DNA from: a virus
Reading direction: 5' to 3' (one strand)
UHGV virus genome: UHGV-0185973
DNA: 64,000 nt
The notes beneath the pieces were generated by a model, which was not told where the DNA came from, did not search any database, and saw only the letters and a list, made by a program, of their open reading frames with translations. Both the position numbers and the translations under genes were made by a program. Below, in pieces: positions 3,451-24,006 of this stretch (position 1 is its first letter; every line of letters starts with the position of its first letter).

Positions 3451-3460
3451 AAACTTTAAA

Positions 3461-3482
3461 GGGGCTGCATAGCCCCATTTTG
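3461..3482 (+). terminator. rho-independent terminator
   Basis: GGGGCT-gcat-AGCCCC hairpin followed by ATTTT. Confidence 0.6.
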
Positions 3483-3496
3483 AGAGAGATAAGAAG

Positions 3497-5314
3497 ATGA
3501 CTAAATCAATCTACGCAGTTCCAGCAGGTCTTAATGCAGATGCCTACAAAGCAGGTCACATCTACCAGTATCCAAGTGCTACACAGTATTTGATGCTGAA
3601 CCTTACACCTCGTGGTGATAAGTGGTTTAACAGCCCCTTAGAAGTTGACGGTGTAGTTGCTTTTGGTATCCAACGTTTTGTAAAAGACTATCTGGTAGAC
3701 CATTGGAATGCAACGTTCTTTGAGCGTGACAAGAAAGAAGCTGTTGATGAAATCTTAGAAGTTATGAATGGTGTACTTGGTGCAGATGCTATTGGTCGTG
3801 AGCATTGGGAAGAACTCCACGATTTAGGGTACTTACCCGTTGCTGTATATTCTGTTGAAGAAGGTATTGTAGTACCAATGCGTGTGCCAATGATTGTCTT
3901 CAAAAATACTGTTGAAGGTTTCCATTGGGTAGCTGGTTATCTGGAAGATGCTTTCTCTGCTGAAATTTGGAAAGCTTGTACCATTGCAACTATTGCGCTG
4001 CACTACAAACGTATCTGTAAGAATTGGGCTGATGTAACCTGTGATAATGACTTCCACTTACCTTGGCAGTGTCATGATTTTGCAATGCGTGGTATGTCTG
4101 GCTTCACAGATGATGCTTTTAATGCTGTAGGTCACTTGACCAGCTTTAAAGGTACTGACAGCTTCCCTGCTGTGTATACTGCTAAACGTGCTTATGGTCA
4201 GTTTATGACAATCAGTGATATTGGCAACTCTGTACCAGCAACTGAACACTCTGTGATGTGTGCAAACATTTCATGGAATAGTACATCTAAAGAAGTTAGT
4301 GATTGGCATCTTATGCAATCTGATAACCTGCTAGATGCAATGCGTTGGCGTGGCGAGGTAGACACTTTCAAACGTCTGTTAGTTGATGTTTATCCAACTG
4401 GTATTGCAAGTGTTGTTTCAGATACTTATAACTTCTGGCGTACTGTTACACAGATTCTACCAGAATTACGCGAAGTCATCCTGAACCGTGATGGTAAGTT
4501 GGTTATCCGTCCAGACTCTGGAGACCCTGTTCACATTGTAACTGGCTACAAAGCTATTGAGTGGGAAACTGCTAAGTCAATGTTCTATAAGCATATGAAG
4601 AGTCTTGCACCTGATAATACTCATCTGCATGATGCAATCTTAAATTGTGAGATGGGTGATATGGGCTTTGGCTTTGCTGCTTGGTTAGTCTCAGAAGGCT
4701 ATGAGATGACAGTTGACAAAGAAGACTTTGACCATGCTGATACAGTTAACCTGATTGCCGCTCAAAAGACTGGACAGTTTACTGTTAAGCGTATGCTGAC
4801 AGCAGAGATTGACGGAGCTATCAAAACTCTGTACAACATCTTTGGAGGCCACGTAAACAGCAAAGGTTACAAAGTACTGGATGAGCATATTGGCTTAATC
4901 TACGGAGATTCTATCACTCTTGAACGTGCTGATGAGATTCTTAAGCGTCTTGCTGAGAAAGGTTTTGCAAGCTCTAACGTAGTGTTTGGCGTAGGTTCTT
5001 ACACTTATCAGTATCTGACTCGTGATACCTTTGCATTTGCTGTTAAGGCTACACTTGCTCAAATGGATGGTGAAGAAATTATGCTGGCAAAAGACCCTAA
5101 AACTGACAGTGGTCTGAAGAAGTCTGCATTTGGTGGTGTAGTTCCAATGTGGGACGGTGATAAACTGGAAGCTGTAGACGGCTTAGGTTTTGCAGAGTTT
5201 GAAGGTGTCATTGATAACCCTCAGTGCGCACTGAAGCTTGTCTTCTGTGACTCACAACCATATGGTTACGTTAACCTTCGTGATGTACGAAAAGTTATTG
5301 ACAACCAGATTTAA
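3497..5314 (+). CDS. nadV: nicotinamide phosphoribosyltransferase-like protein (NadV/Nampt family; possibly Namat-like)
   Basis: 605-aa ORF; called NadV/Nampt-family from overall recognition and adjacency to the Prs-like gene; no single signature motif quoted. Confidence 0.65.
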   Translation: MTKSIYAVPAGLNADAYKAGHIYQYPSATQYLMLNLTPRGDKWFNSPLEVDGVVAFGIQRFVKDYLVDHWNATFFERDKKEAVDEILEVMNGVLGADAIGREHWEELHDLGYLPVAVYSVEEGIVVPMRVPMIVFKNTVEGFHWVAGYLEDAFSAEIWKACTIATIALHYKRICKNWADVTCDNDFHLPWQCHDFAMRGMSGFTDDAFNAVGHLTSFKGTDSFPAVYTAKRAYGQFMTISDIGNSVPATEHSVMCANISWNSTSKEVSDWHLMQSDNLLDAMRWRGEVDTFKRLLVDVYPTGIASVVSDTYNFWRTVTQILPELREVILNRDGKLVIRPDSGDPVHIVTGYKAIEWETAKSMFYKHMKSLAPDNTHLHDAILNCEMGDMGFGFAAWLVSEGYEMTVDKEDFDHADTVNLIAAQKTGQFTVKRMLTAEIDGAIKTLYNIFGGHVNSKGYKVLDEHIGLIYGDSITLERADEILKRLAEKGFASSNVVFGVGSYTYQYLTRDTFAFAVKATLAQMDGEEIMLAKDPKTDSGLKKSAFGGVVPMWDGDKLEAVDGLGFAEFEGVIDNPQCALKLVFCDSQPYGYVNLRDVRKVIDNQI

Positions 5315-11563: not shown

Positions 11564-12448
11564 ATGAAGCCAATGTTCAAATATCTTGGTGGTAAAACAA
11601 GAATACTAAGAGAGTATGAGCGTTTAAATGTTTTTCCAAGCCACTGTAAAAACTTCTATGATTTGTTTTCAGGTGGAGGTTCAGTCGCTATTTGGGCTTA
11701 TAACAGATACCCAGAAGCAAAAATATTTATTAATGAGATAAACAAACACATTATAGGTCTTTACACAACTTTCAGAAATGACTATGAAAACTTCATGGAA
11801 GAATTTGAGTGCTTGTCAAAGAGGTACTTAGCATTACCTATGCAGGAAGAATATGCTGTGAAAGGTCAGCGACATAAACGTTTACGCTATAAAATGTATT
11901 ACAGTGTAAGGGAGGAACTCCTTTCACTTGGTGAAACAGGTATATATGACTATAGGTACTATGCAAGACAATTTTTCCTTCAAAAACTAAGTTTTGGTGG
12001 TGTATGGCAGACCACTAAAGAAATGAAAGGTCACTACGCAACACCTTGTGGGTATTTGCTGGAAGAAGAGATTTTCTTTACAAAAACTAAAGAGTCACTA
12101 TCCGAGTTCTACAGTTTTATCACCGATAAAAGGGTGATACTAAGTAGTGAGCCTTATGATATGGTTGACATAAAACATGGAGAAGGTACAGTTATTTACT
12201 GTGACCCCCCATATATCAACACCAACCAGAAATATGGTGCAAAGTTTGACATTGAAATGTCTGTAAAACTATGTGAAAATATGATTTCTTGGGGAGAGTT
12301 AGGTTCTAAAGTTTTGATGTCAAACTCTCAGTGGGATGGATGGACAAACTTAATCCCTGAAAATTTTAACTTGACAGAGGTTAGCCATTCATACACAATA
12401 CATGCACAGAGAAGCAAGGGTGTTAGCGAAGTAATTATTCATAACTAA
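11564..12448 (+). CDS. dam: DNA N6-adenine methyltransferase (Dam-like)
   Basis: AAGGAG RBS; SAM-binding motif DLFSGGGSV and catalytic IYCDPPY in the order typical of Dam-type enzymes. Confidence 0.75.
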   Translation: MKPMFKYLGGKTRILREYERLNVFPSHCKNFYDLFSGGGSVAIWAYNRYPEAKIFINEINKHIIGLYTTFRNDYENFMEEFECLSKRYLALPMQEEYAVKGQRHKRLRYKMYYSVREELLSLGETGIYDYRYYARQFFLQKLSFGGVWQTTKEMKGHYATPCGYLLEEEIFFTKTKESLSEFYSFITDKRVILSSEPYDMVDIKHGEGTVIYCDPPYINTNQKYGAKFDIEMSVKLCENMISWGELGSKVLMSNSQWDGWTNLIPENFNLTEVSHSYTIHAQRSKGVSEVIIHN

Positions 12449-12459
12449 GGTATCAAACC

Positions 12460-13272
12460 ATGACAAACAGTGTAAATGTAGCTCTAAACGGTAAGATTGT
12501 TAAAATGCAGACTAAGATTATCAGCGTAGAAGACTTTATTAATGAGAAACGCTACAAGGAAAATCCACGTCAACGAAATACATTAAAACGACTTAAGAGC
12601 AAACACCTTAATGGTGATGTATCACCAGACCAAACAGTTGTCCATATTGCTAAATTCGGTAGTTCACTGTTTATTATTGACGGCCACTCACGCAGAGAGG
12701 CATGGAAAGTTGGGAACCTTACACGACCAGAAGGATTGATTGCAGTTATATACCATGTAAACTCTATACTAGATGTTACAGATTTGTACACTCACTTTGA
12801 CTCTGAGTTAGCAAGAGAGAAACCTTCAGAAGTCTATTACGGAAACATGAAGATGATTTCCTTCAATCCAAAGTCAGAGTTGATGAAAGCATCTTGGGCT
12901 ACTGCTATTAAGTATGTTGCTGCATACTATGGGGTGCAACAGGTTTCTAACACTGAAACAGTCAATCACCTTGATGACTTTAAAAATGAGATGGAGCAAA
13001 TTGACTCTCTTGAAGTACAGCTCAAAGGTGTAGTAAACGCAAAACGTAAGTATTCCTCTGGTATTCGTGCAGCAATGCTAATTACATTACGGCTATATGG
13101 TGATGCTGCATTCTCCTTCTGGGAGGACTATAATGACTACTGCGAAGGTATGTCTAACAAATATGTTACAGAGGCATACCAACTAGCATTGCAAGCTGGT
13201 CGTGGAGCACAGGCTGACAAGCTATTGATGAATCAAGTAATTTCACTTGTCAACTACTTCAGCCAAGAGTAG
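12460..13272 (+). CDS. ParB/Srx-fold (DGQHR-like) domain protein
   Basis: Motif LFIIDGHSRREAW resembles the [IV]DGxxR signature of ParB-like nuclease / DGQHR domains. Confidence 0.4.
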   Translation: MTNSVNVALNGKIVKMQTKIISVEDFINEKRYKENPRQRNTLKRLKSKHLNGDVSPDQTVVHIAKFGSSLFIIDGHSRREAWKVGNLTRPEGLIAVIYHVNSILDVTDLYTHFDSELAREKPSEVYYGNMKMISFNPKSELMKASWATAIKYVAAYYGVQQVSNTETVNHLDDFKNEMEQIDSLEVQLKGVVNAKRKYSSGIRAAMLITLRLYGDAAFSFWEDYNDYCEGMSNKYVTEAYQLALQAGRGAQADKLLMNQVISLVNYFSQE

Positions 13273-13277
13273 TACAC

Positions 13278-13300
13278 AGGCTCCAGAAGGAGCCTTTTTC
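13278..13300 (+). terminator. rho-independent terminator (GGCTCC/GGAGCC family)
   Basis: AGGCTCC-agaa-GGAGCCT followed by TTTTT. Confidence 0.7.
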
Positions 13301-13320
13301 GTTTATGTAAGGGGTACATT

Positions 13321-13422
13321 ATGATTAAAGTTATCAAGATAATACCATCATTGGTAATGCTCATAGTAGGGGTAGGTATTATACTTATGCTTTGCCCTGC
13401 TTTTTGGCCTTTTATCTTATAA
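13321..13422 (+). CDS. small hydrophobic peptide (33 aa), not in ORF track
   Basis: AAGGGG RBS; product MIKVIKIIPSLVMLIVGVGIILMLCPAFWPFIL is a single predicted TM helix. Confidence 0.3.
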   Translation: MIKVIKIIPSLVMLIVGVGIILMLCPAFWPFIL

Positions 13423-13441
13423 TAGTCTAGGAGATTGACAA

Positions 13442-13789
13442 ATGACATTCAAAGAATTTTGTCAAGCAGCTTTTGTAATCATGTTTTTGTTAGGTGTAGG
13501 TGCTTGGGGTGGCTATACTTACAAGACTAGCCAAGTTAACGAGAAAGAGTTGACTAATCAGAAGCTTGTTAGTGTTGCTAAGGATGCTTACCAAGAAGGT
13601 TTAGCAAATCTTAGCGCTAATTACAAAAATGATTTGAAAGATGTGCTTGCTAAAAACAAACACACAAAAGAGGTATTGACCTATGAAAAAACTAAGACAG
13701 AGTTTTATAATATTTGTGCTACTGAGCCTTATGTCAGGGTGTTCAACCTACAAAGTGAACAATACCTTCAAAAACTCCCAAGTAAGTGA
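13442..13789 (+). CDS. i-spanin-like protein (N-terminal TM helix, helical periplasmic domain)
   Basis: AGGAG RBS; N-terminal hydrophobic segment AAFVIMFLLGVGAWGG then charged helical sequence; o-spanin-like ORF starts inside its 3' end. Confidence 0.45.
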   Translation: MTFKEFCQAAFVIMFLLGVGAWGGYTYKTSQVNEKELTNQKLVSVAKDAYQEGLANLSANYKNDLKDVLAKNKHTKEVLTYEKTKTEFYNICATEPYVRVFNLQSEQYLQKLPSK

Positions 13790-13952
13790 GAGTGACAAGT
13801 ACACTCAGGAAGAGACTAGGTACACTGTCAAGGGTACTAAAGGTGAAGACCTTGCTAGTGCTATGGAGTTTTACCGTGATGGATTCTATGAATGTACTAT
13901 CAAGGCAAACAATTTGATTGATATGATTTTGTTAGGGAATAAGCAGCAATGA
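13683..13952 (+). CDS. o-spanin-like outer-membrane lipoprotein
   Basis: Signal peptide with lipobox-like LSLMSGC; start embedded in the upstream ORF in another frame. Confidence 0.45.
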   Translation: MKKLRQSFIIFVLLSLMSGCSTYKVNNTFKNSQVSESDKYTQEETRYTVKGTKGEDLASAMEFYRDGFYECTIKANNLIDMILLGNKQQ

Positions 13953-14218
13953 CAGAAAAGAGTGAAACGTTTTATGTAGAAGGTTACTTACTTCTTCCAA
14001 GACCAAGTAACACTTATATGAGAATTGATTTTTTACCAACTATCATGGATGATGTAATGTGTCACCTGTTTATTCAGGGTATCACAGCACAGCTTAAACA
14101 TGTTGGAAGAGAGTGTAAGATTCGTGTTGACAACCATCCAGAAATCAACGAGAATCACTACATCTTCTTCGGTGAAGATTCTAAAGAAATCTACGCAACG
14201 TTAAAGACTAGGAAATAA
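13949..14218 (+). CDS. hypothetical protein
   Basis: ATGA start/stop overlap with upstream gene. Confidence 0.45.
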   Translation: MTEKSETFYVEGYLLLPRPSNTYMRIDFLPTIMDDVMCHLFIQGITAQLKHVGRECKIRVDNHPEINENHYIFFGEDSKEIYATLKTRK

Positions 14219-14220
14219 CA

Positions 14221-14379
14221 TGGATAAGCAAAAGCTGCTTGAACTAATTAAAGAGTATGGTGATACTCGCTACAATGTAGCTGGAGAAAGCTGTCAAGGT
14301 TCAATCGATGGTTTAACTTTCTGGGAAGAATCTTCAGAAGCAATCTTACAACAAATTAGAGAGGTTGTAACAAATGGGT
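14221..14379 (+). CDS. small hypothetical protein (52 aa), not in ORF track
   Basis: AGGAAA RBS before ATG 14221; stop overlaps next start. Confidence 0.3.
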
Positions 14380-14778
14380 GATTGTGCAGATGATGCAGAC
14401 CGTTGGGCTGAGTTGCAAGGGTTAAGACAGGAATTTAGAGAACTACTCAGGGGTTCTTCACAAGCCTATAAAGAGTACAATCAAGAAGACTTCCCTAGCA
14501 AGCCTTTGTACCTGATTCACCAAAATAATCTCATGAATGTTGGGTACAGCATGGAACAAAGGATGAAGATTTGTGTAATAAGATACTTCATTAATGAATC
14601 TGCAAAAGTTGGTGATGAAATCATTTGTCCATGCTGCAATTTGAAGTTTAAGAAGAAAACATATCAGCAAAAGTTTTGTGGAGTTAAAAAGAAAGGTCAT
14701 TCAAACTGTAAAGATTTCTTTTTCAACTTTACAAACCCAAAACGTTATGAAAGGGTGAAGTTTTTTGTGAGAGGATGA
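14374..14778 (+). CDS. hypothetical Cys-rich protein
   Basis: ORF with CPCC...C...C cluster (possible zinc ribbon). Confidence 0.45.
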   Translation: MGDCADDADRWAELQGLRQEFRELLRGSSQAYKEYNQEDFPSKPLYLIHQNNLMNVGYSMEQRMKICVIRYFINESAKVGDEIICPCCNLKFKKKTYQQKFCGVKKKGHSNCKDFFFNFTNPKRYERVKFFVRG

Positions 14779-14784
14779 TTGATT

Positions 14785-15108
14785 ATGGTAATTGATGGTA
14801 AAACATTTGTAGCTGTCTTCTCAGATAATGAGAAAGATATTGGTGTAGCCCAAGTTACATATGGTAATGGAGAGTTTTTGTATGGTGTGGTTGCTTTAGT
14901 AGGCACAAGAGGTGATACAAAGACCTTCCAAGATTGTGTACATAAGCTTGAAGAATCTGTGAGTAATCATTGGTGTCTTGTGTTTATGAACGCTGATGAT
15001 GTTAAAGAACGATATGCTAAAATTGGCATTGACATTGTTGGTATTGAACATGTAGAGTTGTACCAACTAACTGAAAAGGTGATGTATGAAAGCAATACTA
15101 GTTCGTAG
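14785..15108 (+). CDS. hypothetical protein
   Basis: First ATG of track ORF 14779 (which begins TTG); GAGGA RBS upstream. Confidence 0.45.
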   Translation: MVIDGKTFVAVFSDNEKDIGVAQVTYGNGEFLYGVVALVGTRGDTKTFQDCVHKLEESVSNHWCLVFMNADDVKERYAKIGIDIVGIEHVELYQLTEKVMYESNTSS

Positions 15109-15325
15109 TAAAGAAACTCGTGAAGTTTTAGGTGGTGCAATCATTATCCATAAGGATAGGGTTATTCCATTTATGAATCCACTATTACATCGTGATTTTA
15201 AGAGTGGTAACTTTAAACATTACTTAGATTCAAATTATATATCACAACACACTCTAGAGGTTTATAAAAGGGCTTGGGCTTCTGATGGTAGAATTTTCTT
15301 CCAAGAGGTAGTTTCAAATGGCTGA
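15086..15325 (+). CDS. hypothetical protein
   Basis: ORF with AAAAGGTG RBS. Confidence 0.4.
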   Translation: MKAILVRSKETREVLGGAIIIHKDRVIPFMNPLLHRDFKSGNFKHYLDSNYISQHTLEVYKRAWASDGRIFFQEVVSNG

Positions 15326-15518
15326 TTTCTGCAAGAAGTGTGCAATAGAACACTTTGGTGTTGATACAGGAGACTTGAAAGGTCTCTTCACCAAAGAAGA
15401 ATTTGAAGCTGGTTCAGCTATGCCAGTTATCTGTGAAGGTTGTGGTGCATTATACGTAGACCATGAAGGTAACCGTGTAAAACCATCCGAAGACATGCAA
15501 CGTTGGGAGCATTATTAA
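15318..15518 (+). CDS. small zinc-ribbon-like protein
   Basis: CxxC (CKKC) and CxxC (CEGC) pairs in 66 aa. Confidence 0.4.
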   Translation: MADFCKKCAIEHFGVDTGDLKGLFTKEEFEAGSAMPVICEGCGALYVDHEGNRVKPSEDMQRWEHY

Positions 15519-15519
15519 T

Positions 15520-16311
15520 ATGGGTATTGTAAAAATTATCAAAGGGGATATCTTTGAAGCTTTTGACAATCAGAAGTTTGATATTATTGGTCACGGTTGC
15601 AACTGCATGAATCTTATGGGTGCAGGGATTGCAGCAACAATTGCAAAACGTTACCCAAAAGCTTATGAGACTGACCAAGAAGTCTACAACCTGTTTGGTA
15701 AAGACCACAAACCAGTAGCTTTAATGCTTGGAAATCTTAGTGTAGCGCGTTTTAAGCAGGGTCGTATTGCTAACCTATACACTCAGTTAGTTACTGGTAA
15801 AGATGCCCGTTACAATGCTTTAGAGGCTGCTTTAGAGCGACTAAACAACTACTGCAAAGTCAATCAGCTTAAGAAGGTTGGCTTACCAATGATAGGTGCA
15901 GGGATTGGTGGTCTTGATGGTATGGCTGTGCTATCTATCATTAACCAGACCATGAAGGATGTTGATGTTTACATGTACATCTATGAAGATAAGATGTTCA
16001 AGGAACTGACTAATCCTAAGTCTGGTTGGGAGAATCACAGTGAACCACAATTCTTCGATGGTGTTGCAAAGGTTGAAGAAGATGTAGTTACCCTGTGGGT
16101 GAAGCGTAAAGGGAAGGTACATAAAAGTAACCCTCCGGTTGAGAAGTATTCTCTAAGTAACGCTCTAGTTACCCACCCGTTGGCAGGGCATTGTATGAGA
16201 GGTGTAACATTTGGTGATGATGCTAATGTGTATATCCTTGCAAGCAACGACAAAGATGCTGAGGAAGCACTTTCCTGTGAAGTGATTAAGTTTGTAGAAG
16301 CACGTAACTAG
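15520..16311 (+). CDS. macrodomain protein (TARG1/DarG-like) with C-terminal extension
   Basis: N-terminus IKGDIFEA...FDIIGHGCNCMNLMGAGIAATIAKRYP matches the TARG1/OARD1 pattern (H-C-x-x-D-C-x-MGAGIA); about 100 aa of unassigned C-terminal sequence. Confidence 0.6.
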   Translation: MGIVKIIKGDIFEAFDNQKFDIIGHGCNCMNLMGAGIAATIAKRYPKAYETDQEVYNLFGKDHKPVALMLGNLSVARFKQGRIANLYTQLVTGKDARYNALEAALERLNNYCKVNQLKKVGLPMIGAGIGGLDGMAVLSIINQTMKDVDVYMYIYEDKMFKELTNPKSGWENHSEPQFFDGVAKVEEDVVTLWVKRKGKVHKSNPPVEKYSLSNALVTHPLAGHCMRGVTFGDDANVYILASNDKDAEEALSCEVIKFVEARN

Positions 16312-16383
16312 ATAGCTCTGTAGTAATACTCACAATAGCTTTAAGCCTTTCTTACTCAAGCATTCAGCAAGGTAAGGAGGGCT

Positions 16384-16565
16384 TTTTCATTTCAAAAACG
16401 TGCAGGTGTAGTGCTATAGAGAAATCTGTACAGCAATTTCTGAACTCCAAAGAGAAAAATCATTTTAGAATTGTGCAGGTCAACTCCAAAGAGCTTTTTC
16501 ATTTTCAATCTGTGCAGATGCAGTTGGACTCCAAAGGGAAAATTCATTTTCAATTTGTGCAGGTA
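16384..16565. repeat. imperfect tandem repeats, about 40-45 bp unit, 3-4 copies
   Basis: Repeated ACTCCAAAGRG ... TTTTCATTTTCAAT.TGTGCAGRT units at about 16400, 16472, 16511, 16556; they produce the spurious minus-strand ORF 16392-16703. Confidence 0.6.
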
Positions 16566-16737
16566 GGTAGCTATAGGAAGCCAGCCCCACCATCCCCTCT
16601 TACTCCCCTTCCTCCCAAAAGTCAAGAGAAAAATTTGTAGAGAACTGAAAAATAATTCTTGACTAGTTTTCTGTTTTCTGTTAGTTGCGTACACGCGTTT
16701 CATTCACAACTTTCCAAAAATATTTTTAAAAATTTTC

Positions 16738-16766
16738 TTGACTCTATGAATCCAGTTTTGTAGTAT
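16738..16766 (+). promoter_or_regulatory. sigma70-like promoter (TTGACT-N17-TAGTAT)
   Basis: TTGACT 16738-16743, TAGTAT 16761-16766; upstream of the first cassette ORF. Confidence 0.5.
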
Positions 16767-16819
16767 TTGCATCAACGGGGCAAGCAAGCCCCAACAATCC
16801 TAAACTGGAGAATCTAAAA

Positions 16820-17203
16820 ATGAAAAAATACTACATGCCTAAATTCATCAAGAAAGAAAACTTTCGTAATGCTCTGGAAAAATCTATGGGCGAACAATTC
16901 AAAGGAAAAATAATTGTTGTTCACGCTTACAATTTTAAGTATGATGTGAATGGAAACAAGATAAACCATTATACCGCTACAATGTTAGATGGTACACTAT
17001 CAGGAGAAAAAGCCGTCATAAATGCACTTGCTGGACGTGGAAAAACTCTCATCCGTTGCGATAAACGCCGCTATCAGGGTAGTGCTTATGGTTATGAAGA
17101 TGCAATCTATCATCTTGATAACATGGGTTACAATGTCGAAAAAGCTGGCGTATCTCAAATGATTGGCAGTGATGGCTATGTAACAATCTTTGAAATTAAC
17201 TAA
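16820..17203 (+). CDS. hypothetical protein (cassette ORF)
   Basis: Preceded by conserved CCTAAACTGGAGAATCTAAAAATG context. Confidence 0.55.
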   Translation: MKKYYMPKFIKKENFRNALEKSMGEQFKGKIIVVHAYNFKYDVNGNKINHYTATMLDGTLSGEKAVINALAGRGKTLIRCDKRRYQGSAYGYEDAIYHLDNMGYNVEKAGVSQMIGSDGYVTIFEIN

Positions 17204-17289
17204 TAAAGTACTTTACATGGGGTTTATAGTTCGATAGGATAAGCCCCAGATAAAGAACTTTATCACTAACCTAAACTGGAGTTTTAAAA

Positions 17290-17547
17290 ATGGCTACCAT
17301 TAAAAACATCGTAATTACTGCAAAATCCCGTGATGACGCTCGCGCAACTGCTAAAAAATTAAATGGTAAAGTAGTTGACAACGGAAAAAGTTCTGCTGTA
17401 AGATGGGGCGTAAAGACAGACAAGGAATTAACCTTGAAACATAGCTCTAAAAACCTGTTTAAAGGTGTACAGACTATCGGTAAAACAAATGTATTTACAA
17501 AACAAGGTTATAAAATGCACTTGGCATTAACTGACAATTTAATCTAA
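17290..17547 (+). CDS. hypothetical protein (cassette ORF)
   Basis: Preceded by full cassette 17205-17289. Confidence 0.55.
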   Translation: MATIKNIVITAKSRDDARATAKKLNGKVVDNGKSSAVRWGVKTDKELTLKHSSKNLFKGVQTIGKTNVFTKQGYKMHLALTDNLI

Positions 17548-17638
17548 AAAGTACTTTACATGGGGTTTATAAATTGCTAGTATAAGCCCCAGATAAAGAG
17601 CTTTACCACTAAACAATCCTAAACTGGAGAATCTAAAA

Positions 17639-18151
17639 ATGAAATTTGTTGAAAGTACCTTTGAAGTTCAAAAAGAAAAATTCACCATTATCTATGAGGC
17701 AATGAATATTTGTGAGCCTTCCCATTGTGTGGATAACTGGCAATTTACTGATGAGCATAAAGGCGGGGTTACAATCAAAGTTAAGAATGCAGAACGTAAC
17801 AGCTACAAATATGCAATTCCCACACATTACCCGCTTTCACAACTTACCAGTGACTACGCAAAACAGGGAAGGGATAACCCGTCATTGGAAGCTTACAAGA
17901 GCTTACAGGATGAGCTAGAAAGGGATTTACAGGCTAATAACTACATCTTGTATGCCTCAGTAGTTGACGCTGAAGGCAACACGGTTTTAAATAGTTTTTC
18001 CCTTGCGTATGGTTTCGATTGGTGCTATCTTGACGGGGAAGATTTAGATTCACGCTTAAAAGAGGAAGTCAGTAATTCAGGTGCTGAAGAGGAAGTTTTA
18101 GAGCGTTTGGAAGATTTAAAAGACAGTGTGATGAATATCTTTAACATTTAA
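17639..18151 (+). CDS. hypothetical protein (cassette ORF)
   Basis: Preceded by full cassette 17548-17638. Confidence 0.55.
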   Translation: MKFVESTFEVQKEKFTIIYEAMNICEPSHCVDNWQFTDEHKGGVTIKVKNAERNSYKYAIPTHYPLSQLTSDYAKQGRDNPSLEAYKSLQDELERDLQANNYILYASVVDAEGNTVLNSFSLAYGFDWCYLDGEDLDSRLKEEVSNSGAEEEVLERLEDLKDSVMNIFNI

Positions 18152-18235
18152 AAGTACTTTACATGGGGTTATCAGGCTGATAAGATAGCCCCAGATAAAG
18201 AGCTTTACCCAATAACCTAAACTGGAGATTCTAAA

Positions 18236-18532
18236 ATGTTTATCGCTGCAAATGTACGTTCCAAATTGAGCAAGCTTTTACAAGATATCAAATTTGTAGA
18301 ATCTATGCGCCGCACTCATGAAGTAACGGAGTGGTATCATGGGAAAATAAATGGTAAAGAAGTTGTTATTTGTATTTGGAATTTTTGTAAAGAATACAAA
18401 AAGCCGTTGCTTCAGGTGGATATCTATGATAATGCAAATAAAAATTCTGTTAAGTCTACAAGGGATATGATAGATTCTTTTGAGATTAGCCACACTGGCA
18501 GACTATTTCACAAAGGAAAATCATCATGCTAA
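18236..18532 (+). CDS. hypothetical protein (cassette ORF)
   Basis: Preceded by cassette 18152-18235. Confidence 0.55.
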   Translation: MFIAANVRSKLSKLLQDIKFVESMRRTHEVTEWYHGKINGKEVVICIWNFCKEYKKPLLQVDIYDNANKNSVKSTRDMIDSFEISHTGRLFHKGKSSC

Positions 18533-18849
18533 TTTCTGGAGTTGCCTTACTCATTGCTATTTTAGCACTGTATAAATCATGTAAAGCACATCATGCGGCA
18601 AGTGATGCAATCACAAGACAAATCAATAATAAACTTGTGACGTCCTTTCTAGAGCGTTTAAACGTGGAACAACTGAAGCGCTTAGAGATGGGCTTCAGAT
18701 TCAAGGCTGATACGTATCAGGTTAGCGACATTCTAAGCGGTGATTTTCAATTGATTGATGATTATAACGCTTTATTAAATGCTTTAAATATCAGTGACTT
18801 GAAAGATTATCATGCTGTTATTGTTCACGAAATAAGCAAACGAAAATAA
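18526..18849 (+). CDS. hypothetical membrane protein
   Basis: N-terminal TM segment MLISGVALLIAILALY; start overlaps upstream ORF. Confidence 0.45.
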   Translation: MLISGVALLIAILALYKSCKAHHAASDAITRQINNKLVTSFLERLNVEQLKRLEMGFRFKADTYQVSDILSGDFQLIDDYNALLNALNISDLKDYHAVIVHEISKRK

Positions 18850-18942
18850 ATTACTAAAAAGGGCTTGCAACTGATAGCAAAAACAAGTAAATTACTAATC
18901 AGACGGGCAAACAAGCCCACTTCCTAAACTGGAGAATCTAAA

Positions 18943-19215
18943 ATGTATACTACCAACAATAGCCGAACTTTAAATGTAACTTTAAAGCACTATGTAGAGG
19001 GTGTATTAAACTTTGAAGACTTGCAAGCAGAACAGCACTTGTTAGGTTGGCAAGTAGCAGGATTACAAAAAACTGCCACCGGATATGGGAAGAAAATCCC
19101 TACATCGTGGAAAGTGCGCTATTTAGGCAAGTTACGTAGAATTTATCAAGATGTTTATAGCAATAGTGGTGTAAGTTACATTATTGTTAACGGTAAGAAG
19201 TTGTATTTAATCTAA
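18943..19215 (+). CDS. hypothetical protein (cassette ORF)
   Basis: Preceded by variant cassette with the conserved RBS context. Confidence 0.5.
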   Translation: MYTTNNSRTLNVTLKHYVEGVLNFEDLQAEQHLLGWQVAGLQKTATGYGKKIPTSWKVRYLGKLRRIYQDVYSNSGVSYIIVNGKKLYLI

Positions 19216-19301
19216 TAAATTGCTTTACATGGGGTTATCAGGCTGATAAGATAGCCCCAGATAAAGAGATTTACCCAATAACCTAAACTGGAGATTCTAA
19301 A

Positions 19302-19703
19302 ATGACTGCTAATCGTGATATCGCTATTCTGAAAGCACGATTGACTGTAAATCGTATTAATTCTATCACATCCACAGCACCCGATGAGACATTGCATAAC
19401 ATTATCGGTAAAATTCAAGGTGTAATTTTAGACGTAGAAAACATCAAAAATTCACTTGCAAACGTTGCAAATGGTGCTACACTTGACGGCGCACAATATG
19501 AAATGGCTGATATGTTAGCCAAATCAAAAGTAATGAATAAAGAACTTGATTTGAAAATGTTTCGATTTGCTGTTAAAGTGTGGCTAGCTATTGAGTTCGA
19601 TGCTAATTTTGCAATTGCTGATTTCTTTGCTACATGGTTACAACGTAACCTGTCAAAACAAGACTTTGAAGATATCTGCGACACAATTTACGCAGAACTT
19701 TAA
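19302..19703 (+). CDS. hypothetical protein (cassette ORF)
   Basis: Preceded by cassette 19216-19301. Confidence 0.55.
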   Translation: MTANRDIAILKARLTVNRINSITSTAPDETLHNIIGKIQGVILDVENIKNSLANVANGATLDGAQYEMADMLAKSKVMNKELDLKMFRFAVKVWLAIEFDANFAIADFFATWLQRNLSKQDFEDICDTIYAEL

Positions 19704-19806
19704 AAAACGTTTGACACTAATTTTTAGATAGATTAAAGTACTAATCAGACGGGTATGCAATAACCTCCCCAGTAAGTGAAGTCCTTAAACTAGGAGATTC
19801 TAAAAA

Positions 19807-20010
19807 ATGGCTATTATTAACGGCTTAACCATCGAAAAAACACACATCAAAGACATTAAAGTTGGGGATACAGTTCTTTTTCACGGCGTAGAAAAAACTG
19901 TCACCGCAAAAGATATCAAAGAAGATTCTTTCATGGGTGTGACTCTATTCGGCGACTCTTATCGCTTAGGATACCTTGCAGTTTTAAAAGTTATCAAAAA
20001 TAACCGATAA
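19807..20010 (+). CDS. hypothetical protein (cassette ORF)
   Basis: Preceded by variant cassette (CTTAAACTAGGAGATTCTAAAAAATG). Confidence 0.5.
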   Translation: MAIINGLTIEKTHIKDIKVGDTVLFHGVEKTVTAKDIKEDSFMGVTLFGDSYRLGYLAVLKVIKNNR

Positions 20011-20096
20011 AGTACTTTACAGGGGGCTTAAAAGTTGATACCTTAAGCCCCAGATAAAGAGCTTTACCAAATCAATCCTAAACTGGAGATTCTAAA

Positions 20097-20654
20097 ATGA
20101 AATGCTTTCACGGTACTACTCAAGAAAACTTTTTAAACCTCATCAATGGCGGCGAAAAACCTACAGGTGCTTGGAATTGCTCTGATATGGATGGTTATTT
20201 TTACGTATACCCTGTCAGTAAGTTCTGCGACGTAGAAGAGATGGACGAAGAACAAATCACAAATGAAGGGTTGCGCAATGCTCTTGATAGTGCTACAATC
20301 ACAGCAGCTATCCAAATGAAAACTCAAAATATTGTTATCTTAGAACTTGAAATTCCAGAAGATGAGTTACAAGATGATTGGTCTTGTGAGAATATGAGTG
20401 ACATCGCAAGCTTTACAGAGCACTTTGATAAAGATTGGGTTAAAAAGGTTTATACAACTGAATTCAATGCAATGTATTCACCGTTTTTTGTTCCTAACTT
20501 ACAAAATCGTAATTTGGGATATATTGATGAAAAGCTTGAAGAGGTTGCAACATTCATCCAAAATGCCGATGATAGCTCAATCATCTATTGCAATATGCTG
20601 GACGCAATGCAAGAAAGCTTAACAGAAAGCGTTTTAAGCGACGTTTTAGCGTAA
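20097..20654 (+). CDS. putative ADP-ribosyltransferase (PARP-like H-Y-E class), cassette ORF
   Basis: N-terminus FHGTTQENFLNLINGG parallels the PARP signature WHGSRTTNFAGILSQG; downstream DGYFYVYPVSKF parallels GKGIYFADMVSKS; acidic ILELEIPEDE segment follows. Motif-level call only. Confidence 0.35.
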   Translation: MKCFHGTTQENFLNLINGGEKPTGAWNCSDMDGYFYVYPVSKFCDVEEMDEEQITNEGLRNALDSATITAAIQMKTQNIVILELEIPEDELQDDWSCENMSDIASFTEHFDKDWVKKVYTTEFNAMYSPFFVPNLQNRNLGYIDEKLEEVATFIQNADDSSIIYCNMLDAMQESLTESVLSDVLA

Positions 20655-20717
20655 ACCATACAATCACACTAACGACATTCAAAAGCCCCGCATAGGGGCT
20701 TACAAGGGGATTAAATC

Positions 20718-20954
20718 ATGTTAACAACAATCTATCTCATGCTTGCCGTTTGCTCTGGTGCAAATAATTGTCATTATGGCATTATGGAATCTTTCGAAGG
20801 CACTAAACAAAATGCAGTAGAGGCTTGCAATATTGCTAGACAGGACTACCCGAAATCGTCTATAATGGACTGTTATGTCTCACAAGGTGAAGACGAAAGC
20901 ACAGAATACTACGAAAACGTTAATGAAGATGAATTTTTAGAGATTTACAAATAA
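20718..20954 (+). CDS. hypothetical small secreted protein or lipoprotein
   Basis: N-terminus MLTTIYLMLAVCSG resembles a signal peptide with lipobox-like LAVC. Confidence 0.4.
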   Translation: MLTTIYLMLAVCSGANNCHYGIMESFEGTKQNAVEACNIARQDYPKSSIMDCYVSQGEDESTEYYENVNEDEFLEIYK

Positions 20955-21030
20955 AGTACTTTACATGGGGCTTAAAAGCTTGATACCATAAGCCCCAGAT
21001 AAAGAGCTTTCCTAAACTGGAGTTTTCACA

Positions 21031-21177
21031 ATGTCAAATATAGTTGAAATGGTTTTTAATAATCCGGTATTCTCAGAGATGATTTTCTCGTTTATCATGA
21101 TGTTACTTGTTAAAACCATGAAAAAAGCCGAAAAATTACACTCAAAGAAAAAAGCTATTGCAAACCGTTTTAAGTAA
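21031..21177 (+). CDS. small membrane protein (48 aa), not in ORF track
   Basis: Preceded by cassette 20955-21030; product has hydrophobic core MIFSFIMMLLV and basic C-terminus. Confidence 0.35.
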   Translation: MSNIVEMVFNNPVFSEMIFSFIMMLLVKTMKKAEKLHSKKKAIANRFK

Positions 21178-21224
21178 AGATATAGTATCAATCAAGCCCA
21201 CTTCCTAAACTGGAGAATCTAAAA

Positions 21225-21566
21225 ATGGCATACGTAACAATTATCACTGATAAAGAAAACTCTTCTTGGTCCACACAAGTAAGCGATAAAATGTCGCCTA
21301 TGCAATGCCTCAAATACTTTGAGCAATGGAACAGGGGGGAAGATGTAAGCCCTTTCCAAGTAATGCAGGTTGTACATGTTGACAATGACGGCAACAAAAC
21401 TACCCTTAACACTGAATACTATGCTACACGTTTTGAGACTCGCAAAGAAGCTATGCGGGAACTAAGAGAAAAGGGCTATAGTCACATTGCCGCTTTGATT
21501 TGGTCTGATTTGCTTAAAAAACAAGCATTAACCTACGTCAAGCCTGAAAAAATCTTTATAAACTAA
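21225..21566 (+). CDS. hypothetical protein (cassette ORF)
   Basis: Preceded by conserved RBS context. Confidence 0.5.
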   Translation: MAYVTIITDKENSSWSTQVSDKMSPMQCLKYFEQWNRGEDVSPFQVMQVVHVDNDGNKTTLNTEYYATRFETRKEAMRELREKGYSHIAALIWSDLLKKQALTYVKPEKIFIN

Positions 21567-21598
21567 TCAACAACTTACAAAATTCTTTGAAAAAACTG

Positions 21599-21627
21599 TT
21601 GACATTGCCCCTTGACAATAGTACATT
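21599..21627 (+). promoter_or_regulatory. sigma70-like promoter (TTGACA-N17-TACATT)
   Basis: TTGACA 21599-21604; second TTGACA 21612-21617; weaker -10. Confidence 0.35.
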
Positions 21628-21788
21628 TGTTCGAGGGGGTTTATCTAAAGGGATTCACTTAAAAGATTCTTTATAGATAAGCGAAAAAGTACTTGCAATC
21701 AGATTTCAAAACAAGTAAATTACTAAGCAACGGGGAGGGGATGACCTTCCCCACTAAGTAAAGTCCTTAAACTAGGAGATTCTAAAAA

Positions 21789-22037
21789 ATGTATACTAAA
21801 ACACAACTCAAAAGCATGGTAAACAGTGGTTTAATGAATGATGTTTATAAGGATTGCAGACGTTACGGGGAAATAAGAGAGATAATTGATTATGAGTATA
21901 CTCACACAATAAATTTCAAAACTAATGAAAAACGGACTGACTTTATAACTGTAGTGATTATTGAATACAAAAATTTATTGTGGACTTTTGAGCTGGTGAA
22001 AGGTGAGTGTATAGAAATCGAATACAAGGCCGCTTAA
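21789..22037 (+). CDS. hypothetical protein (cassette ORF)
   Basis: Preceded by variant cassette; last gene of the rightward block. Confidence 0.5.
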   Translation: MYTKTQLKSMVNSGLMNDVYKDCRRYGEIREIIDYEYTHTINFKTNEKRTDFITVVIIEYKNLLWTFELVKGECIEIEYKAA

Positions 22038-22091
22038 AAGTACTTTATAGGGGGATTAAAAGCTGACACCTTAAGCCCCCAAACACCTTTA

Positions 22092-22127
22092 CAGCCCCTT
22101 TTGTCTCTCTCATAGGGGCTTTTTTTA
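22092..22127 (+). terminator. rho-independent terminator
   Basis: AGCCCCT ... AGGGGCT stem followed by TTTTTTT. Confidence 0.65.
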
Positions 22128-22596
22128 CGTCTATGTAATAGCCCCTCTCAAATGCTTATATAAACCCTTCCCCTGTCCTTTCCAGAATCTTACAAGACCT
22201 TAAAAAGCAATAACTCTATAGCTTACTCTATAACCTCTTATCAAATCAACTTAAATATAAGCCCATAACCCGAAAGGGAAGGGCAATCCCTTAAACGCTC
22301 TATAACGCTCTATAACGGCTTATCAACTCAACTTAACCAATCATATTAACCCACTCTTAAAAGCCCTCTATAGAGCTTCATAGACCCTTAAAAGAATCTT
22401 ATAAGGGGTGTAAGCTTTATCATCTCGTTAGTATCTTGTGAATAGTTAAACAGGGGGCTTGTTATTAGCTTAAAAGTATGTTATAGGGGCTTAAAAGTAG
22501 CTATAAAGTTACGTAAAAGTATCGTAAATGCTAGCCCCCTTAACATTTCTTTAACAATTTCTTAACAATCCCTACATAGTTATGCTTATTAGAGAC

Positions 22597-23110
22597 TTGT
22601 TAGCACCTTGTTAAATCTCTGTTAAGACTATGTTACAACCTTGTTAGATTCTTTGGAGTCCCTATATAAGCCCCTGTAAAGGGCTATAAAGAGCTATACA
22701 GTCAGTTGGGCTATAGTTACTATGGAGAACCTTAGAAATGGCTGTATAGAGCTATACAGGGCTTTTAAGAGGGCTTTTAAGAGAATCACTGAGAAAGATA
22801 GGGAACTATAGACCAAGAGATAGTGACATGTTAACAGCTTGTTAAAAAGGTTAAACACTTGTTAGGAACTTGTTAATAATCTTAACAAAATAACTCTTAA
22901 CATTTAACTACTCAACTCTTGTTAGCAATCTGTTAAGACTCTGTAAAGACTATGCAACAACTGTTAAGCACTTGTTACAATCTTGTTAGCTCTGTTAAGG
23001 GTCTATTAAGAACTCTGAAGAGATGTTAAGAGGATGTAGTAACTGTTAAGAAATTGTTAATGATATTTTAAGATTTTGCAAAGGGTATGTTACAGGGATG
23101 TTAAGGGCTA
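22597..23110. repeat. array of short degenerate repeats (core YTGTTAR) with about 10-11 bp phasing
   Basis: At least 20 copies of CTTGTTAG / CTGTTAAG / ATGTTACA, e.g. five consecutive copies 22597-22650 at 10-11 bp spacing and a dense run 22828-23110; inverted copies (TTAACA) at 22538-22570 and 22880-22905. No ORF of 60 aa or more across 22128-23870. Confidence 0.7.
22742..22759. promoter_or_regulatory. inverted repeat CTGTATAG-ag-CTATACAG (operator-like)
   Basis: Perfect 8-bp arms; same arms form the palindrome in the rIIA promoter (6086-6105); CTATACAG also at 22694, 23514 and 38040. Confidence 0.4.
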
Positions 23111-24006
23111 CCAAGCAGATATACACCCTAGACAGATATTTTTCAGTTCCTTCAAAGAACCTAAATAAAACACTTGACAGTCTATTTTATAAAAATTTTA
23201 TAGAACTGAATAACTATCTATACACTATCTAGTATAAAACAGGTAATAACAGGCTTATAAGATACCTTGTTAGTACCGTGTTAGACCTTGTAGGATAAGC
23301 CTTAGAAGGGAATACCTGTTTAGTGCTATATAACAGTCTATATAGAGGCTTAGTAAACCCTAGTGAACCATCTATAGAGAGTCACATAGTTAACATAGAG
23401 ATTAAGATGGGTATAGGAGCTTCTAAGGGGTTGTTAAGATGTTAGGAAGGGGGTTGTATAGGTGGTTAAGAAGGCTTGTTAGAGAGCTTGTTAGAGGGCT
23501 ATTTAGAAGGGGCTATACAGTTCACTATATCGAATCACTAGAAAGAGACTAAGAGGCTATATAGATACTATATAATACTATATAGAGAGTATGCTTAGAT
23601 AGGTTGTTTAGAAGGGCTAGATATTTTATCACATATCATGGTGACCCAAGATGAACGTAGTGAATCCAAATTTTATAAAATTATAAATTTCGTAAATTTT
23701 ACTCAATAAAAAGCCCCTATGAGATAGATTCTATCGAATCCATATTAAGGGGCTGTAAAGTTCTTAGCAAAGGTTATCTATGATAGCCTGAATAGCTGGA
23801 ATAGTTGTGTGATAAAAATGAGTGTTTCCATTATGAGCTTCTCTCTCTTGTAACATGATAGAGTGACCCTTTACAGGGAAGCATTGAATGTGATAACGAT
23901 TCCCGTTAAATATTGCTCCACCACCTGAACAGAAACCTTCCAAGACTGACTTAGCAAGGAACTCATTTTCGCTACCTCTAAAGAGGGGCTGTTACACCCC
24001 TTTAAA

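What the first reader, a model, noticed from the sequence alone, without database searches (positions are those of the whole stretch)
15520..16311. Phage-encoded TARG1/DarG-type macrodomain with an unassigned C-terminal domain
The N-terminal 160 aa carry the TARG1-type pattern (GHGCNCMNLMGAGIA), the family that removes ADP-ribose from proteins and, in DarG, from DNA. In a lytic phage this could erase ADP-ribosylation imposed by DarT-like defence or by the phage's own PARP-like ORF. The last 100 aa match nothing I recognise.
Basis: partly seen in the sequence, partly recalled or inferred. Interest (0 to 1): 0.6.

Follow-up and report, generated by a model that had tools for sequence, protein, structure and literature searches.

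The report
Phage AdfM-like macrodomain with orphan tail
A Felix O1-like phage gene encodes an ADP-ribose-removing enzyme related to T4's recently described anti-DarT factor, which most likely strips defensive ADP-ribose marks off phage DNA, and it is fused to a fast-evolving 100-residue domain that resembles nothing known.

Summary
ORF 15520-16311(+) encodes 263 aa: an N-terminal macrodomain (Pfam Macro above its cutoff; confident AF2 model; nearest folds TARG1 and DarG) and a C-terminal ~100-aa beta-rich domain. That domain has no match in Pfam, PDB, BFVD or 1.84 billion representative proteins outside its own family.

- The active site is not the Lys type of TARG1/DarG. The catalytic Lys position holds an invariant Gln (Q89, motif NLYTQ), held by invariant N28, as in SCO6735/BT1257. 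SCO6735 is a proven hydrolase of thymidine-linked ADP-ribose on DNA.
- The idea is no longer new. The T4 homologue Tk.4 (38% identical, same HGCNC/NLYTQ signature) was named AdfM in 2025 and is needed for T4 to resist DarTG2. A Lys-type AdfM of chimalliviruses was shown in 2026 to de-ADP-ribosylate DNA.

No phage ADP-ribosyltransferase was found in the window.

The remaining novelty is the tail specific to Felix O1-like phages (subfamily Ounavirinae). It is an old fusion under weaker constraint (dN/dS 0.43 vs 0.09 for the macro half), and it is not the DarT-binding domain of DarG. Verdict: new variant of a known kind, of moderate interest.

The parts
15520..16311 (+). Two-domain gene (263 aa): macrodomain plus orphan C-terminal domain. 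It is the last gene of a rightward early-type transcription unit.
   Evidence: ORF; PHROG 335 over residues 1-262, E = 4.5e-99; full-length orthologues in ~305 phage records; AF2 pLDDT 88, pTM 0.86.
15520..15996 (+). Macrodomain, residues 1-~159, ALC1-like/TARG1-like class, Gln-type active site. Key residues: H25, N28 (nt 15601-15603), Gly-rich loop 34-38, Q89 (nt 15784-15786), loop GAGIGG 126-131.
   Evidence: Pfam Macro 30 bits > 22. Foldseek: TARG1 TMt 0.84, DarG 0.81. Profile vs PDB: E = 3e-17 to 6e-15. Invariant residues. DarG models hit the macro half only. T4 Tk.4: 38% identity, E = 2e-20.
15997..16308 (+). Linker (residues ~160-180) plus orphan beta-rich C-terminal domain (about six strands and a helix, residues ~181-251). 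It includes a basic hairpin, VKRKGKVHK, at residues ~199-207.
   Evidence: AF2 alone: pLDDT 79, pTM 0.72. No Pfam, PDB or BFVD match, and no non-family sequence match. dN/dS 0.43 vs 0.09 for the macro half. Not homologous to the DarG C-terminal half or to T4 Tk.3.
15318..15518 (+). 66-aa four-cysteine (CxxC...CxxC) ORF whose stop lies 1 nt before the macro start codon. A conserved, probably translationally coupled neighbour and possible partner; its function is unknown.
   Evidence: PHROG 2210, E = 1e-35. The same abutting arrangement occurs in SUSP1, HP1, AYO145A and the distant contig L005. It is 53% identical in L005, where the macro protein is only ~38% identical. No Pfam, PADLOC or NCBIfam hit.
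16343..16390 (+). Rho-independent terminator-like hairpin (14-bp stem followed by a U-run) that ends the transcription unit.
   Evidence: RNA fold -23.8 kcal/mol, z = -5.0, with 0 of 200 shuffles folding as well. The 3' arm and T-run are invariant in four phages. A terminator is annotated at the same place in AYO145A. The simple consensus scan missed it.

Best explanation
The gene encodes an AdfM-type counter-defence enzyme. It is made early in infection. Its macrodomain binds ADP-ribose attached to thymidine in single-stranded phage DNA by a host DarT2-type toxin and hydrolyses the glycosidic bond. This frees ADP-ribose and restores replicable DNA.

Catalysis is inferred to follow the SCO6735-type, Lys-independent mechanism. 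Q89, locked in place by N28, positions the distal ribose, and a backbone-held water acts on the bond.

The C-terminal domain is an accessory module specific to the Ounavirinae lineage. I infer that it recognises a partner: either the DarT toxin, analogous in role but not in fold to DarG's second domain, or ssDNA/the replisome.

Shown here: domain identity, fold, active-site residues, homology to T4 AdfM, conservation and selection. Inferred: the substrate, the anti-DarT role in this phage, and everything about the C-terminal domain's function.
For: - Macro fold and family.
- Homology to T4 Tk.4: 38% identity, E = 2e-20, with shared HGCNC and NLYTQ motifs. Knocking out tk.4 sensitises T4 to DarTG2 (preprint 10.1101/2025.11.20.689424).
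- The only PADLOC and NCBIfam models hit are DarG (E = 3e-15 and 1.6e-14), and this protein scores higher on them than T4 AdfM does.
- Q89 aligns to TARG1 K84 and to the BT1257 Gln. SCO6735 Q85 is the equivalent residue; it is essential, and SCO6735 cleaves DarT-made dT-ADPr on DNA (PMC9411070).
- N28 and Q89 are invariant across divergent phage homologues.
- The macro half is under strong purifying selection, dN/dS 0.09.
- The gene sits among early, non-structural genes next to another ADPR/NAD-centred counter-defence module, the NARP1-like pair at 2551-5314.
- Chimallivirus AdfM shows biochemically that a phage macrodomain removes DarT2 marks from DNA.
Against: - There is no experiment on this protein or on any Felix-like orthologue. 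PhageMaP on Bas63 did not test DarTG.
- The T4 AdfM evidence is genetic only.
- At 38% identity the substrate could have shifted. This macro class also acts on Asp/Glu-ADPr proteins (TARG1), O-acetyl-ADPR and ADPR-1''-phosphate (Poa1p), and the profile is almost equally close to all of them.
- The extra domain has no precedent in AdfM or DarG.
- The protein scores far below the DarG equivalog cutoff: 54 vs 250 bits.
Confidence: 0.6

Rival explanations
1. It is a small-molecule ADP-ribose metabolite hydrolase: a Poa1p-like ADPR-1''-phosphate phosphatase or an O-acetyl-ADPR deacetylase. It would feed free ADP-ribose to the phage's NARP1-like NAD+ reconstitution enzymes. This is what the database label 'phosphatase' implies.
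For: - Poa1p matches by sequence and fold.
- The 'phosphatase' / 'A1pp phosphatase motif' annotation is used in RefSeq and PHROGs.
- A Prs-like plus NAMPT-like pair lies ~11 kb upstream. It corresponds to Bas63 NARP1, which consumes ADPR.
Against: - The label is inherited from a motif, not from an assay.
- The experimentally tested homologue, T4 Tk.4, has a DarTG2-specific phenotype.
- The hits to curated DarG models are far stronger than the next NCBIfam hit, an ADP-ribose-binding protein at E = 0.017.
- Poa1p S30, one of the residues mutated in the Poa1p structures, aligns to Leu in this protein by my reading of the Tk.4-Poa1p alignment.
Confidence: 0.12
2. It is an eraser or degrader aimed at a different ADP-ribose-based host defence. 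Candidates are RNA ADP-ribosylation (CmdTAC-like), protein ADP-ribosylating toxins, or ADPR-derived Thoeris signals such as His-ADPR or gcADPR. The variable C-terminal domain would set the target.
For: - Macrodomains of this class are promiscuous. SCO6735 and TARG1 act on both protein and DNA substrates.
- Thoeris II uses a macrodomain to bind His-ADPR, so such ligands fit the fold.
- The fast-evolving tail suggests a variable target.
Against: No homologue has been linked to these systems. The nearest tested relatives all point to thymidine-ADPr on DNA.
Confidence: 0.15
3. It reverses or regulates ADP-ribosylation carried out by the phage's own transferase.
For: T4, which has Tk.4, also encodes the transferases Alt, ModA and ModB (my own knowledge, not tested here).
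Against: - No ART or PARP Pfam domain was found in the 30 window ORFs of 150 aa or more, or in the eight small neighbours of the gene that were scanned.
- None is annotated in 20-29 kb of the SUSP1 and HP1 neighbourhoods.
- Arg-linked ADPr made by Alt/Mod-type enzymes is not a known substrate of this macro class (my own knowledge).
- The window covers only 64 kb of a ~88 kb genome, and ORFs under 150 aa were mostly not scanned.
Confidence: 0.03
4. It is a non-catalytic ADP-ribose reader or sponge, because the catalytic Lys of TARG1/DarG is missing.
For: K84/K80 is replaced by Gln and D125 by Gly.
Against: - The same Gln is catalytically essential in the active enzyme SCO6735.
- Q89, N28 and both Gly-rich loops are invariant.
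- T4 AdfM carries the same residues and protects against DarTG2.
Confidence: 0.07

Closest known systems
T4 Tk.4 = AdfM (anti-DarT factor Macrodomain), HIDEN-SEQ preprint 10.1101/2025.11.20.689424
   Same: A homologous macrodomain: 38% identity, E = 2e-20. It has the same HGCNC...NLYTQ active-site signature, is a non-structural gene of a lytic enterobacterial myovirus, and carries the same database label 'phosphatase'.
   Different: Tk.4 is a 155-aa single domain, whereas this protein carries an extra ~100-aa domain of unknown fold. The genomic neighbours differ: vs/tk.3 in T4, against a 4-Cys mini-ORF and a terminator here. No functional data exist for the Felix-like form.
SCO6735 (Streptomyces coelicolor) and BT1257: the Gln-type branch of the ALC1-like macrodomains (PMC9411070)
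   Same: A Gln stands at the position of the TARG1/DarG catalytic Lys, with a conserved Asn that locks it. The fold is the same, with profile E = 4.7e-15 and 5e-17. SCO6735 hydrolyses dT-ADPr on DNA and also inhibits DarT by binding it.
   Different: These are bacterial, stand-alone proteins. The SCO6735 mobile loop with K89/K94 is not obviously conserved here. Neither has a C-terminal domain.
DarG antitoxin of DarTG2 (NCBIfam NF048014; PDB 5M31, 5M3E, 5M3I)
   Same: The macro half matches the DarG models (E ~1e-14 to 3e-15) and the DarG structures (TMt 0.78-0.81). Both have a two-domain layout with the macrodomain first.
   Different: The catalytic Lys80 is absent. The second domain is unrelated to the DarT-binding domain of DarG. 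There is no adjacent darT. The score of 54 bits is far below the 250-bit cutoff.
Chimallivirus AdfM (PhiKZ gp104; Cell Rep 2026, PMC13309987)
   Same: A phage-encoded macrodomain that removes DarT2-made ADP-ribose from DNA, so the proposed role is the same.
   Different: It is of the Lys type (N23/K78, like DarG) and is imported into the phage nucleus. It probably represents a separate acquisition. I did not compare it directly by sequence.
Human TARG1/OARD1 (PDB 4J5R/4J5S)
   Same: It is the best structural and sequence match in the PDB, with TMt 0.84-0.85 and an identical MGAGIA loop.
   Different: The K84/D125 catalytic dyad is replaced by Q89/G130. TARG1 is a eukaryotic enzyme that de-ADP-ribosylates Glu/Asp in proteins.

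Membership tests
Macro domain superfamily (Pfam PF01661) | Profile score above the curated gathering threshold | tested here: met
   30.0 bits vs a cutoff of 22, residues 25-140.
Macro domain superfamily (Pfam PF01661) | Three-layer alpha/beta/alpha macro fold with Gly-rich ADP-ribose-binding loops | tested here: met
   AF2 pLDDT 88. Foldseek TMt 0.75-0.85 to TARG1, DarG and Poa1p. Loops GAGIA (34-38) and GAGIGG (126-131) align to those of TARG1 and BT1257.
TARG1/OARD1 | Catalytic Lys84-Asp125 dyad | tested here: not met
   K84 aligns to Q89 and D125 to G130. Q89 is invariant in the phage family.
DarG antitoxin (NCBIfam NF048014 equivalog; PADLOC DarG) | Full-length match above the curated cutoff | tested here: not met
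   53.9 bits vs a cutoff of 250. Only profile positions 2-154 of 338 are matched. PADLOC matches positions 3-148 of 329.
DarG antitoxin (NCBIfam NF048014 equivalog; PADLOC DarG) | Catalytic Lys80 | tested here: not met
   The equivalent position is Q89: alignment to TARG1 K84, and K84 = K80 = SCO6735 Q85 according to PMC9411070.
DarG antitoxin (NCBIfam NF048014 equivalog; PADLOC DarG) | C-terminal DarT-binding domain | tested here: not met
DarG antitoxin (NCBIfam NF048014 equivalog; PADLOC DarG) | Encoded next to a darT toxin gene | tested here: not met
   The neighbours are small phage ORFs. No ART domain was found in the ORFs scanned.
Gln-type ALC1-like macrodomains (SCO6735/BT1257) | Gln at the catalytic-Lys position plus the Asn that positions it | tested here: met
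   NLYTQ aligns to BT1257 NMIGQ, and HGCNC to HICND. Q89 and N28 are invariant. The roles of Q85 and N27 are described in SCO6735.
Gln-type ALC1-like macrodomains (SCO6735/BT1257) | Hydrolysis of thymidine-linked ADP-ribose on ssDNA | not testable with these tools
   Needs a biochemical assay.
AdfM, T4 Tk.4 type | Sequence homology to Tk.4 with the same active-site signature | tested here: met
   38% identity over 133 aa, E = 2e-20. HGCNC and NLYTQ are shared. Both fall in PHROG 335 / 'phosphatase'.
AdfM, T4 Tk.4 type | Single-domain architecture of ~155 aa | tested here: not met
   263 aa with a separately folding C-terminal domain.
AdfM, T4 Tk.4 type | Protects the phage against DarTG2 | not testable with these tools
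   No published test on a Felix-like phage was found.
Poa1p-like ADPR-1''-phosphate phosphatase | Residues probed by mutation in the Poa1p structures (H23, S30, F152) | tested here: inconclusive
   The H23 equivalent (H25) is invariant. S30 appears to align to L32, judged only through the Tk.4-Poa1p alignment. F152 was not assessed.

The most novel reading that the evidence does not exclude
The Ounavirinae-specific C-terminal domain is a new fold that gives the phage a two-pronged, DarG-like antitoxin. The macro half erases thymidine-ADPr. The fast-evolving tail, possibly together with the conserved 4-Cys mini-protein encoded immediately upstream, binds and blocks DarT or tethers the enzyme to replicating ssDNA. 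The released ADP-ribose is then recycled to NAD+ by the phage's NARP1-like enzymes. This would be a case of convergent re-invention of the DarG architecture by a phage.
Probability: 0.15. Interest if true: 0.6.

Novelty: new variant of a known kind. Interest (0 to 1): 0.36.

Why it matters
DarTG systems block phages by ADP-ribosylating their DNA, and phage macrodomains that undo this were only reported in 2025-2026. This gene would extend that counter-defence to the Felix O1-like phages, which are widely used for Salmonella and E. coli biocontrol and therapy.

It also shows that T4-type AdfM proteins use the Lys-independent, Gln-type chemistry of SCO6735, whereas chimallivirus AdfM uses the DarG-type Lys. 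That points to at least two independent recruitments.

The orphan, rapidly diverging C-terminal domain is a tractable handle on how such enzymes are targeted or how they engage the toxin.

In practical terms, the database label 'phosphatase' for PHROG 335 is probably misleading.

Tried and rejected
- **Word-index search with the C-terminal domain alone:** it returned no candidates. This is a limit of the tool, so I replaced it with the exhaustive profile search.
- **P0022 and P0023:** these looked like the C-terminal domain in long proteins, but they are tandem-repeat proteins (TPR-like and Ig-like) with summed weak scores. I rejected them as artefacts.
- **Gene fusion with the T4 neighbour Tk.3:** no similarity.
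- **C-terminal ~100 aa of the Erwinia phage EAP4 orthologue:** hhalign probability 0.7%. It is either the same domain diverged past recognition or a replacement.
no ART was found in the 30 larger ORFs or in the small neighbours scanned. The 270-aa ORF at 12460-13272 hits only designed TIM barrels, which I treat as spurious.
- **Rfam on 13000-24000:** nothing.
- **Consensus terminator scan:** it found none, but folding shows a strong hairpin.

Full report
**1. The observation**

An ATG-initiated ORF of 263 codons occupies 15520-16311 on the + strand. The quoted motif GHGCNCMNLMGAGIA is residues 24-38. Pfam Macro (PF01661) matches residues 25-140 at 30 bits, above its gathering cutoff of 22. A single-sequence search of PDB chains finds TARG1/OARD1 (E = 3.6e-5), Poa1p, DarG and SCO6735, all over residues ~5-155.

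AlphaFold2 on a 13-sequence alignment gives pLDDT 88 and pTM 0.86. The model has a macro-type alternation of strands and helices up to residue ~154, a helix and linker, and then a mostly beta domain at ~181-251. Foldseek against the PDB ranks TARG1 (TMt 0.84-0.85) and DarG of Thermus and Mycobacterium (0.78-0.81) first, followed by Poa1p. Every alignment spans only ~155-170 columns, which is the macro half.

**2. Where it sits**

The window is a Felix O1-like myovirus of the subfamily Ounavirinae. The nearest record is Escherichia phage phiSUSP1, at ~83% nucleotide identity over this stretch.

Translated searches find the macro half in 2,796 phage records, including tk.4 of T4-like phages. Only ~305 records, all Felix-like as far as listed, cover 80% or more of the protein.

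The neighbourhood is conserved in SUSP1, HP1 and AYO145A. The order is: Prs-like and NAMPT-like genes, rIIA, rIIB, a lysin-like ORF, polynucleotide kinase, spanins, a run of small ORFs, a 66-aa ORF, the macro gene, and then a ~500-nt gap.

A hairpin with a U-run at 16343-16390 (-23.8 kcal/mol, z = -5) ends the unit. A terminator is annotated at the same place in AYO145A. The gene is thus the last cistron of a non-structural, rightward unit.

**3. What kind of macrodomain**

A profile built from divergent phage homologues, including Tk.4, hits several solved structures almost equally well:

| Structure | E-value |
|---|---|
| TARG1 | 3e-17 |
| BT1257 | 5e-17 |
| DarG | 3.5e-16 and 1.3e-15 |
| SCO6735 | 4.7e-15 |
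| Poa1p | 6e-15 |

This places the protein in the ALC1-like/TARG1-like class.

The alignments consistently put the family's invariant NLYTQ opposite TARG1 YLITK, so TARG1's catalytic K84 corresponds to Q89. TARG1 D125 corresponds to G130. BT1257 aligns as NMIGQ, sharing both the Asn and the Gln, and HGCNC aligns to BT1257 HICND.

The SCO6735 paper states that SCO6735 Q85 is the structural equivalent of TARG1 K84 and DarG K80. It reports that Q85A abolishes activity and that N27 locks Q85 in place. It also shows that SCO6735 hydrolyses DarT-made thymidine-ADP-ribose on DNA and inhibits DarT by binding it (PMC9411070).

In the phage family H25, N28, N85 and Q89 are invariant. So the protein is not of the Lys type that defines TARG1 and DarG. 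It belongs to the Gln-type branch, which has documented DNA de-ADP-ribosylating activity.

**4. Link to a tested phage protein**

T4 Tk.4 (NC_000866, 60922-61389) is 38% identical over 133 residues (E = 2e-20) and carries the same HGCNC and NLYTQ motifs. The PP01 orthologue does too.

The HIDEN-SEQ preprint found tk.4 as the single T4 gene depleted on a DarTG2 host. It showed that a clean knockout becomes DarTG2-sensitive and named the gene adfM; its enzymatic action was inferred, not assayed.

Independently, a chimallivirus macrodomain (PhiKZ gp104), also called AdfM, was shown to remove DarT2-made ADP-ribose from DNA. That protein has the DarG-like N23/K78 pair.

The only PADLOC and NCBIfam families that this protein hits with significance are DarG: PDLC02990 at E = 3e-15, and NF048014 at E = 1.6e-14 with 53.9 bits. 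It scores higher on them than T4 AdfM does (36 and 30 bits). However, only the macro halves of those profiles are matched, and the score is far below the equivalog cutoff of 250 bits.

**5. The C-terminal domain**

Modelled alone, the last 104 residues fold with pLDDT 79 and pTM 0.72 into the same strands and helix as in the full-length model. Nothing outside the family matches it:
- Pfam gives nothing, and PHROGs gives only family 335 itself.
- BFVD returns only the SUSP2 orthologue.
- AFDB50 could not be searched.
- An exhaustive HMM search of 1.84 billion representatives returns seven proteins. Five are family members or fragments, and two are tandem-repeat artefacts.

The domain is unrelated to T4 Tk.3 and to the DarT-binding half of DarG.

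It is nonetheless real and old. Homologues only 35-38% identical, on ~86-87 kb metagenomic phage contigs with the same rIIB-PNK-...-macro synteny, keep the two-domain form.

Pairwise Nei-Gojobori estimates among the window, SUSP1 and HP1 give dN/dS of 0.09 for the macro half and 0.43 for the tail. In the Erwinia phage EAP4 (Kolesnikvirus) the orthologous 260-aa ORF has a tail that is no longer detectably similar, with an hhalign probability of 0.7%.

So the tail is selected but evolves about five times faster. This fits a partner-recognition surface, but it equally fits a loosely constrained appendage. A basic hairpin (VKRKGKVHK) is its most distinctive feature. The domain's net charge is slightly negative by my own count, so it is not an obvious DNA mimic.

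**6. Mechanism and rivals**

The best-supported reading (confidence about 0.6) is an AdfM-type enzyme that strips DarT2-type thymidine-ADP-ribose from phage ssDNA by the SCO6735-type Gln/Asn/water mechanism. The tail would act as an accessory recognition module.

The rivals are:
- A metabolite hydrolase, as implied by the inherited 'phosphatase' label, possibly feeding the NARP1-like enzymes.
- An eraser aimed at another ADP-ribose-based defence.
- A non-catalytic binder.
- Reversal of a phage-made modification.

The last has no support. No ART or PARP domain was found in the 30 ORFs of 150 aa or more that were scanned, or in the small neighbours. Not every small ORF was scanned, and the window is only part of the genome.

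No paper in the searchable library tests a Felix-like phage against DarTG. The Bas63 essentiality screen does not mention DarT.

**7. Novelty and score**

The family is already catalogued (PHROG 335, annotated as 'macro domain-containing protein' or 'phosphatase'). The anti-DarT idea is already published for T4 and for chimalliviruses.

Four things are new here:
- The explicit assignment of T4-type AdfM and this protein to the Gln-type catalytic branch.
- The lineage-specific orphan domain, with its raised evolutionary rate.
- The conserved pairing with a 4-Cys mini-ORF.
- The absence of DarG's own second domain.

I rate it a new variant of a known kind, with interest 0.36.

Noticed in passing
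window 15318-15518 (+): A 66-aa ORF with two CxxC pairs, which looks like a zinc ribbon (my reading; no family hit), ends 1 nt before the macro start codon. The abutting pair is conserved in SUSP1, HP1, AYO145A and the distant contig L005. In L005 the mini-ORF is 53% identical while the macro protein is only ~38% identical. It may be a functional partner.
   Followed up: partly
window 16378-16570 (within the gap 16312-16819): Four imperfect ~39-45-nt direct repeats share the core TCATTTy-N6-GTGCAG (4 exact matches plus one 1-mismatch match at 9751; 0.6 matches expected by chance). The 500-nt gap is 86% identical across four phages whose flanking proteins are more diverged. Four copies of TCATTTTCAATTTGTGCAT follow the macro gene even in Erwinia phage EAP4. 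There is no Rfam match. These could be regulator-binding sites or unusual promoters; the function is unknown.
   Followed up: partly
window 16656-16687 and 16735-16766 (+): Two TTCTTGACT-N17-TAGTxT sigma-70-like promoters, preceded by an A/T-rich palindromic stretch, lie just upstream of the next gene cluster, which starts at 16820. They are conserved in SUSP1, HP1 and AYO145A.
   Followed up: partly
window 2551-3450 and 3497-5314 (+): A Prs-like gene (299 aa) and a NAMPT-like gene (605 aa) form a pair. It corresponds in annotation and position to the two-gene operon 79-80 of Bas63, shown to be NARP1 (Adps + Namat). NARP1 rebuilds NAD+ from ADP-ribose and counters NAD-depleting defences. This is a second ADPR-centred counter-defence module in the same phage, and it could use ADP-ribose released by the macrodomain. 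Homology to the Bas63 genes themselves was not tested directly.
   Followed up: partly
window 31044-32459 (+), just upstream of the tRNA array: A 471-aa DUF2828/DUF7788 protein sits immediately before 23 tRNA genes (32625-37919). It resembles the situation of Bas63 gp130, a Ro60-like protein upstream of the tRNAs that PhageMaP reported as a counter of the 'ppl' defence. Direct homology to gp130 was not tested.
   Followed up: no
window 11564-13272 (+): A D12-class Dam-type N6-adenine DNA methyltransferase (294 aa) is followed by a 270-aa ORF of unknown function (PHROG 2615). These lie between the PNK-adjacent ORF and the spanin region. No genes of this size are annotated at that place in SUSP1 or HP1, so this looks like an insertion.
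   Followed up: partly
locus L010 (Erwinia phage EAP4) 1998-2780: The orthologous macro ORF (260 aa) is unannotated in the record. Its C-terminal ~100 aa show no detectable similarity to the C-terminal domain of the Escherichia/Salmonella phage proteins, so the tail is either replaced or diverged beyond recognition between Ounavirinae genera.
   Followed up: partly
locus L011 5001-5468 and 6252-7196: An 87-kb metagenomic phage contig carries a macro-only (155 aa) relative. Two genes downstream there is a reverse-transcriptase-domain ORF (RVT_1), followed by an 875-aa ATPase-like ORF.
   Followed up: no
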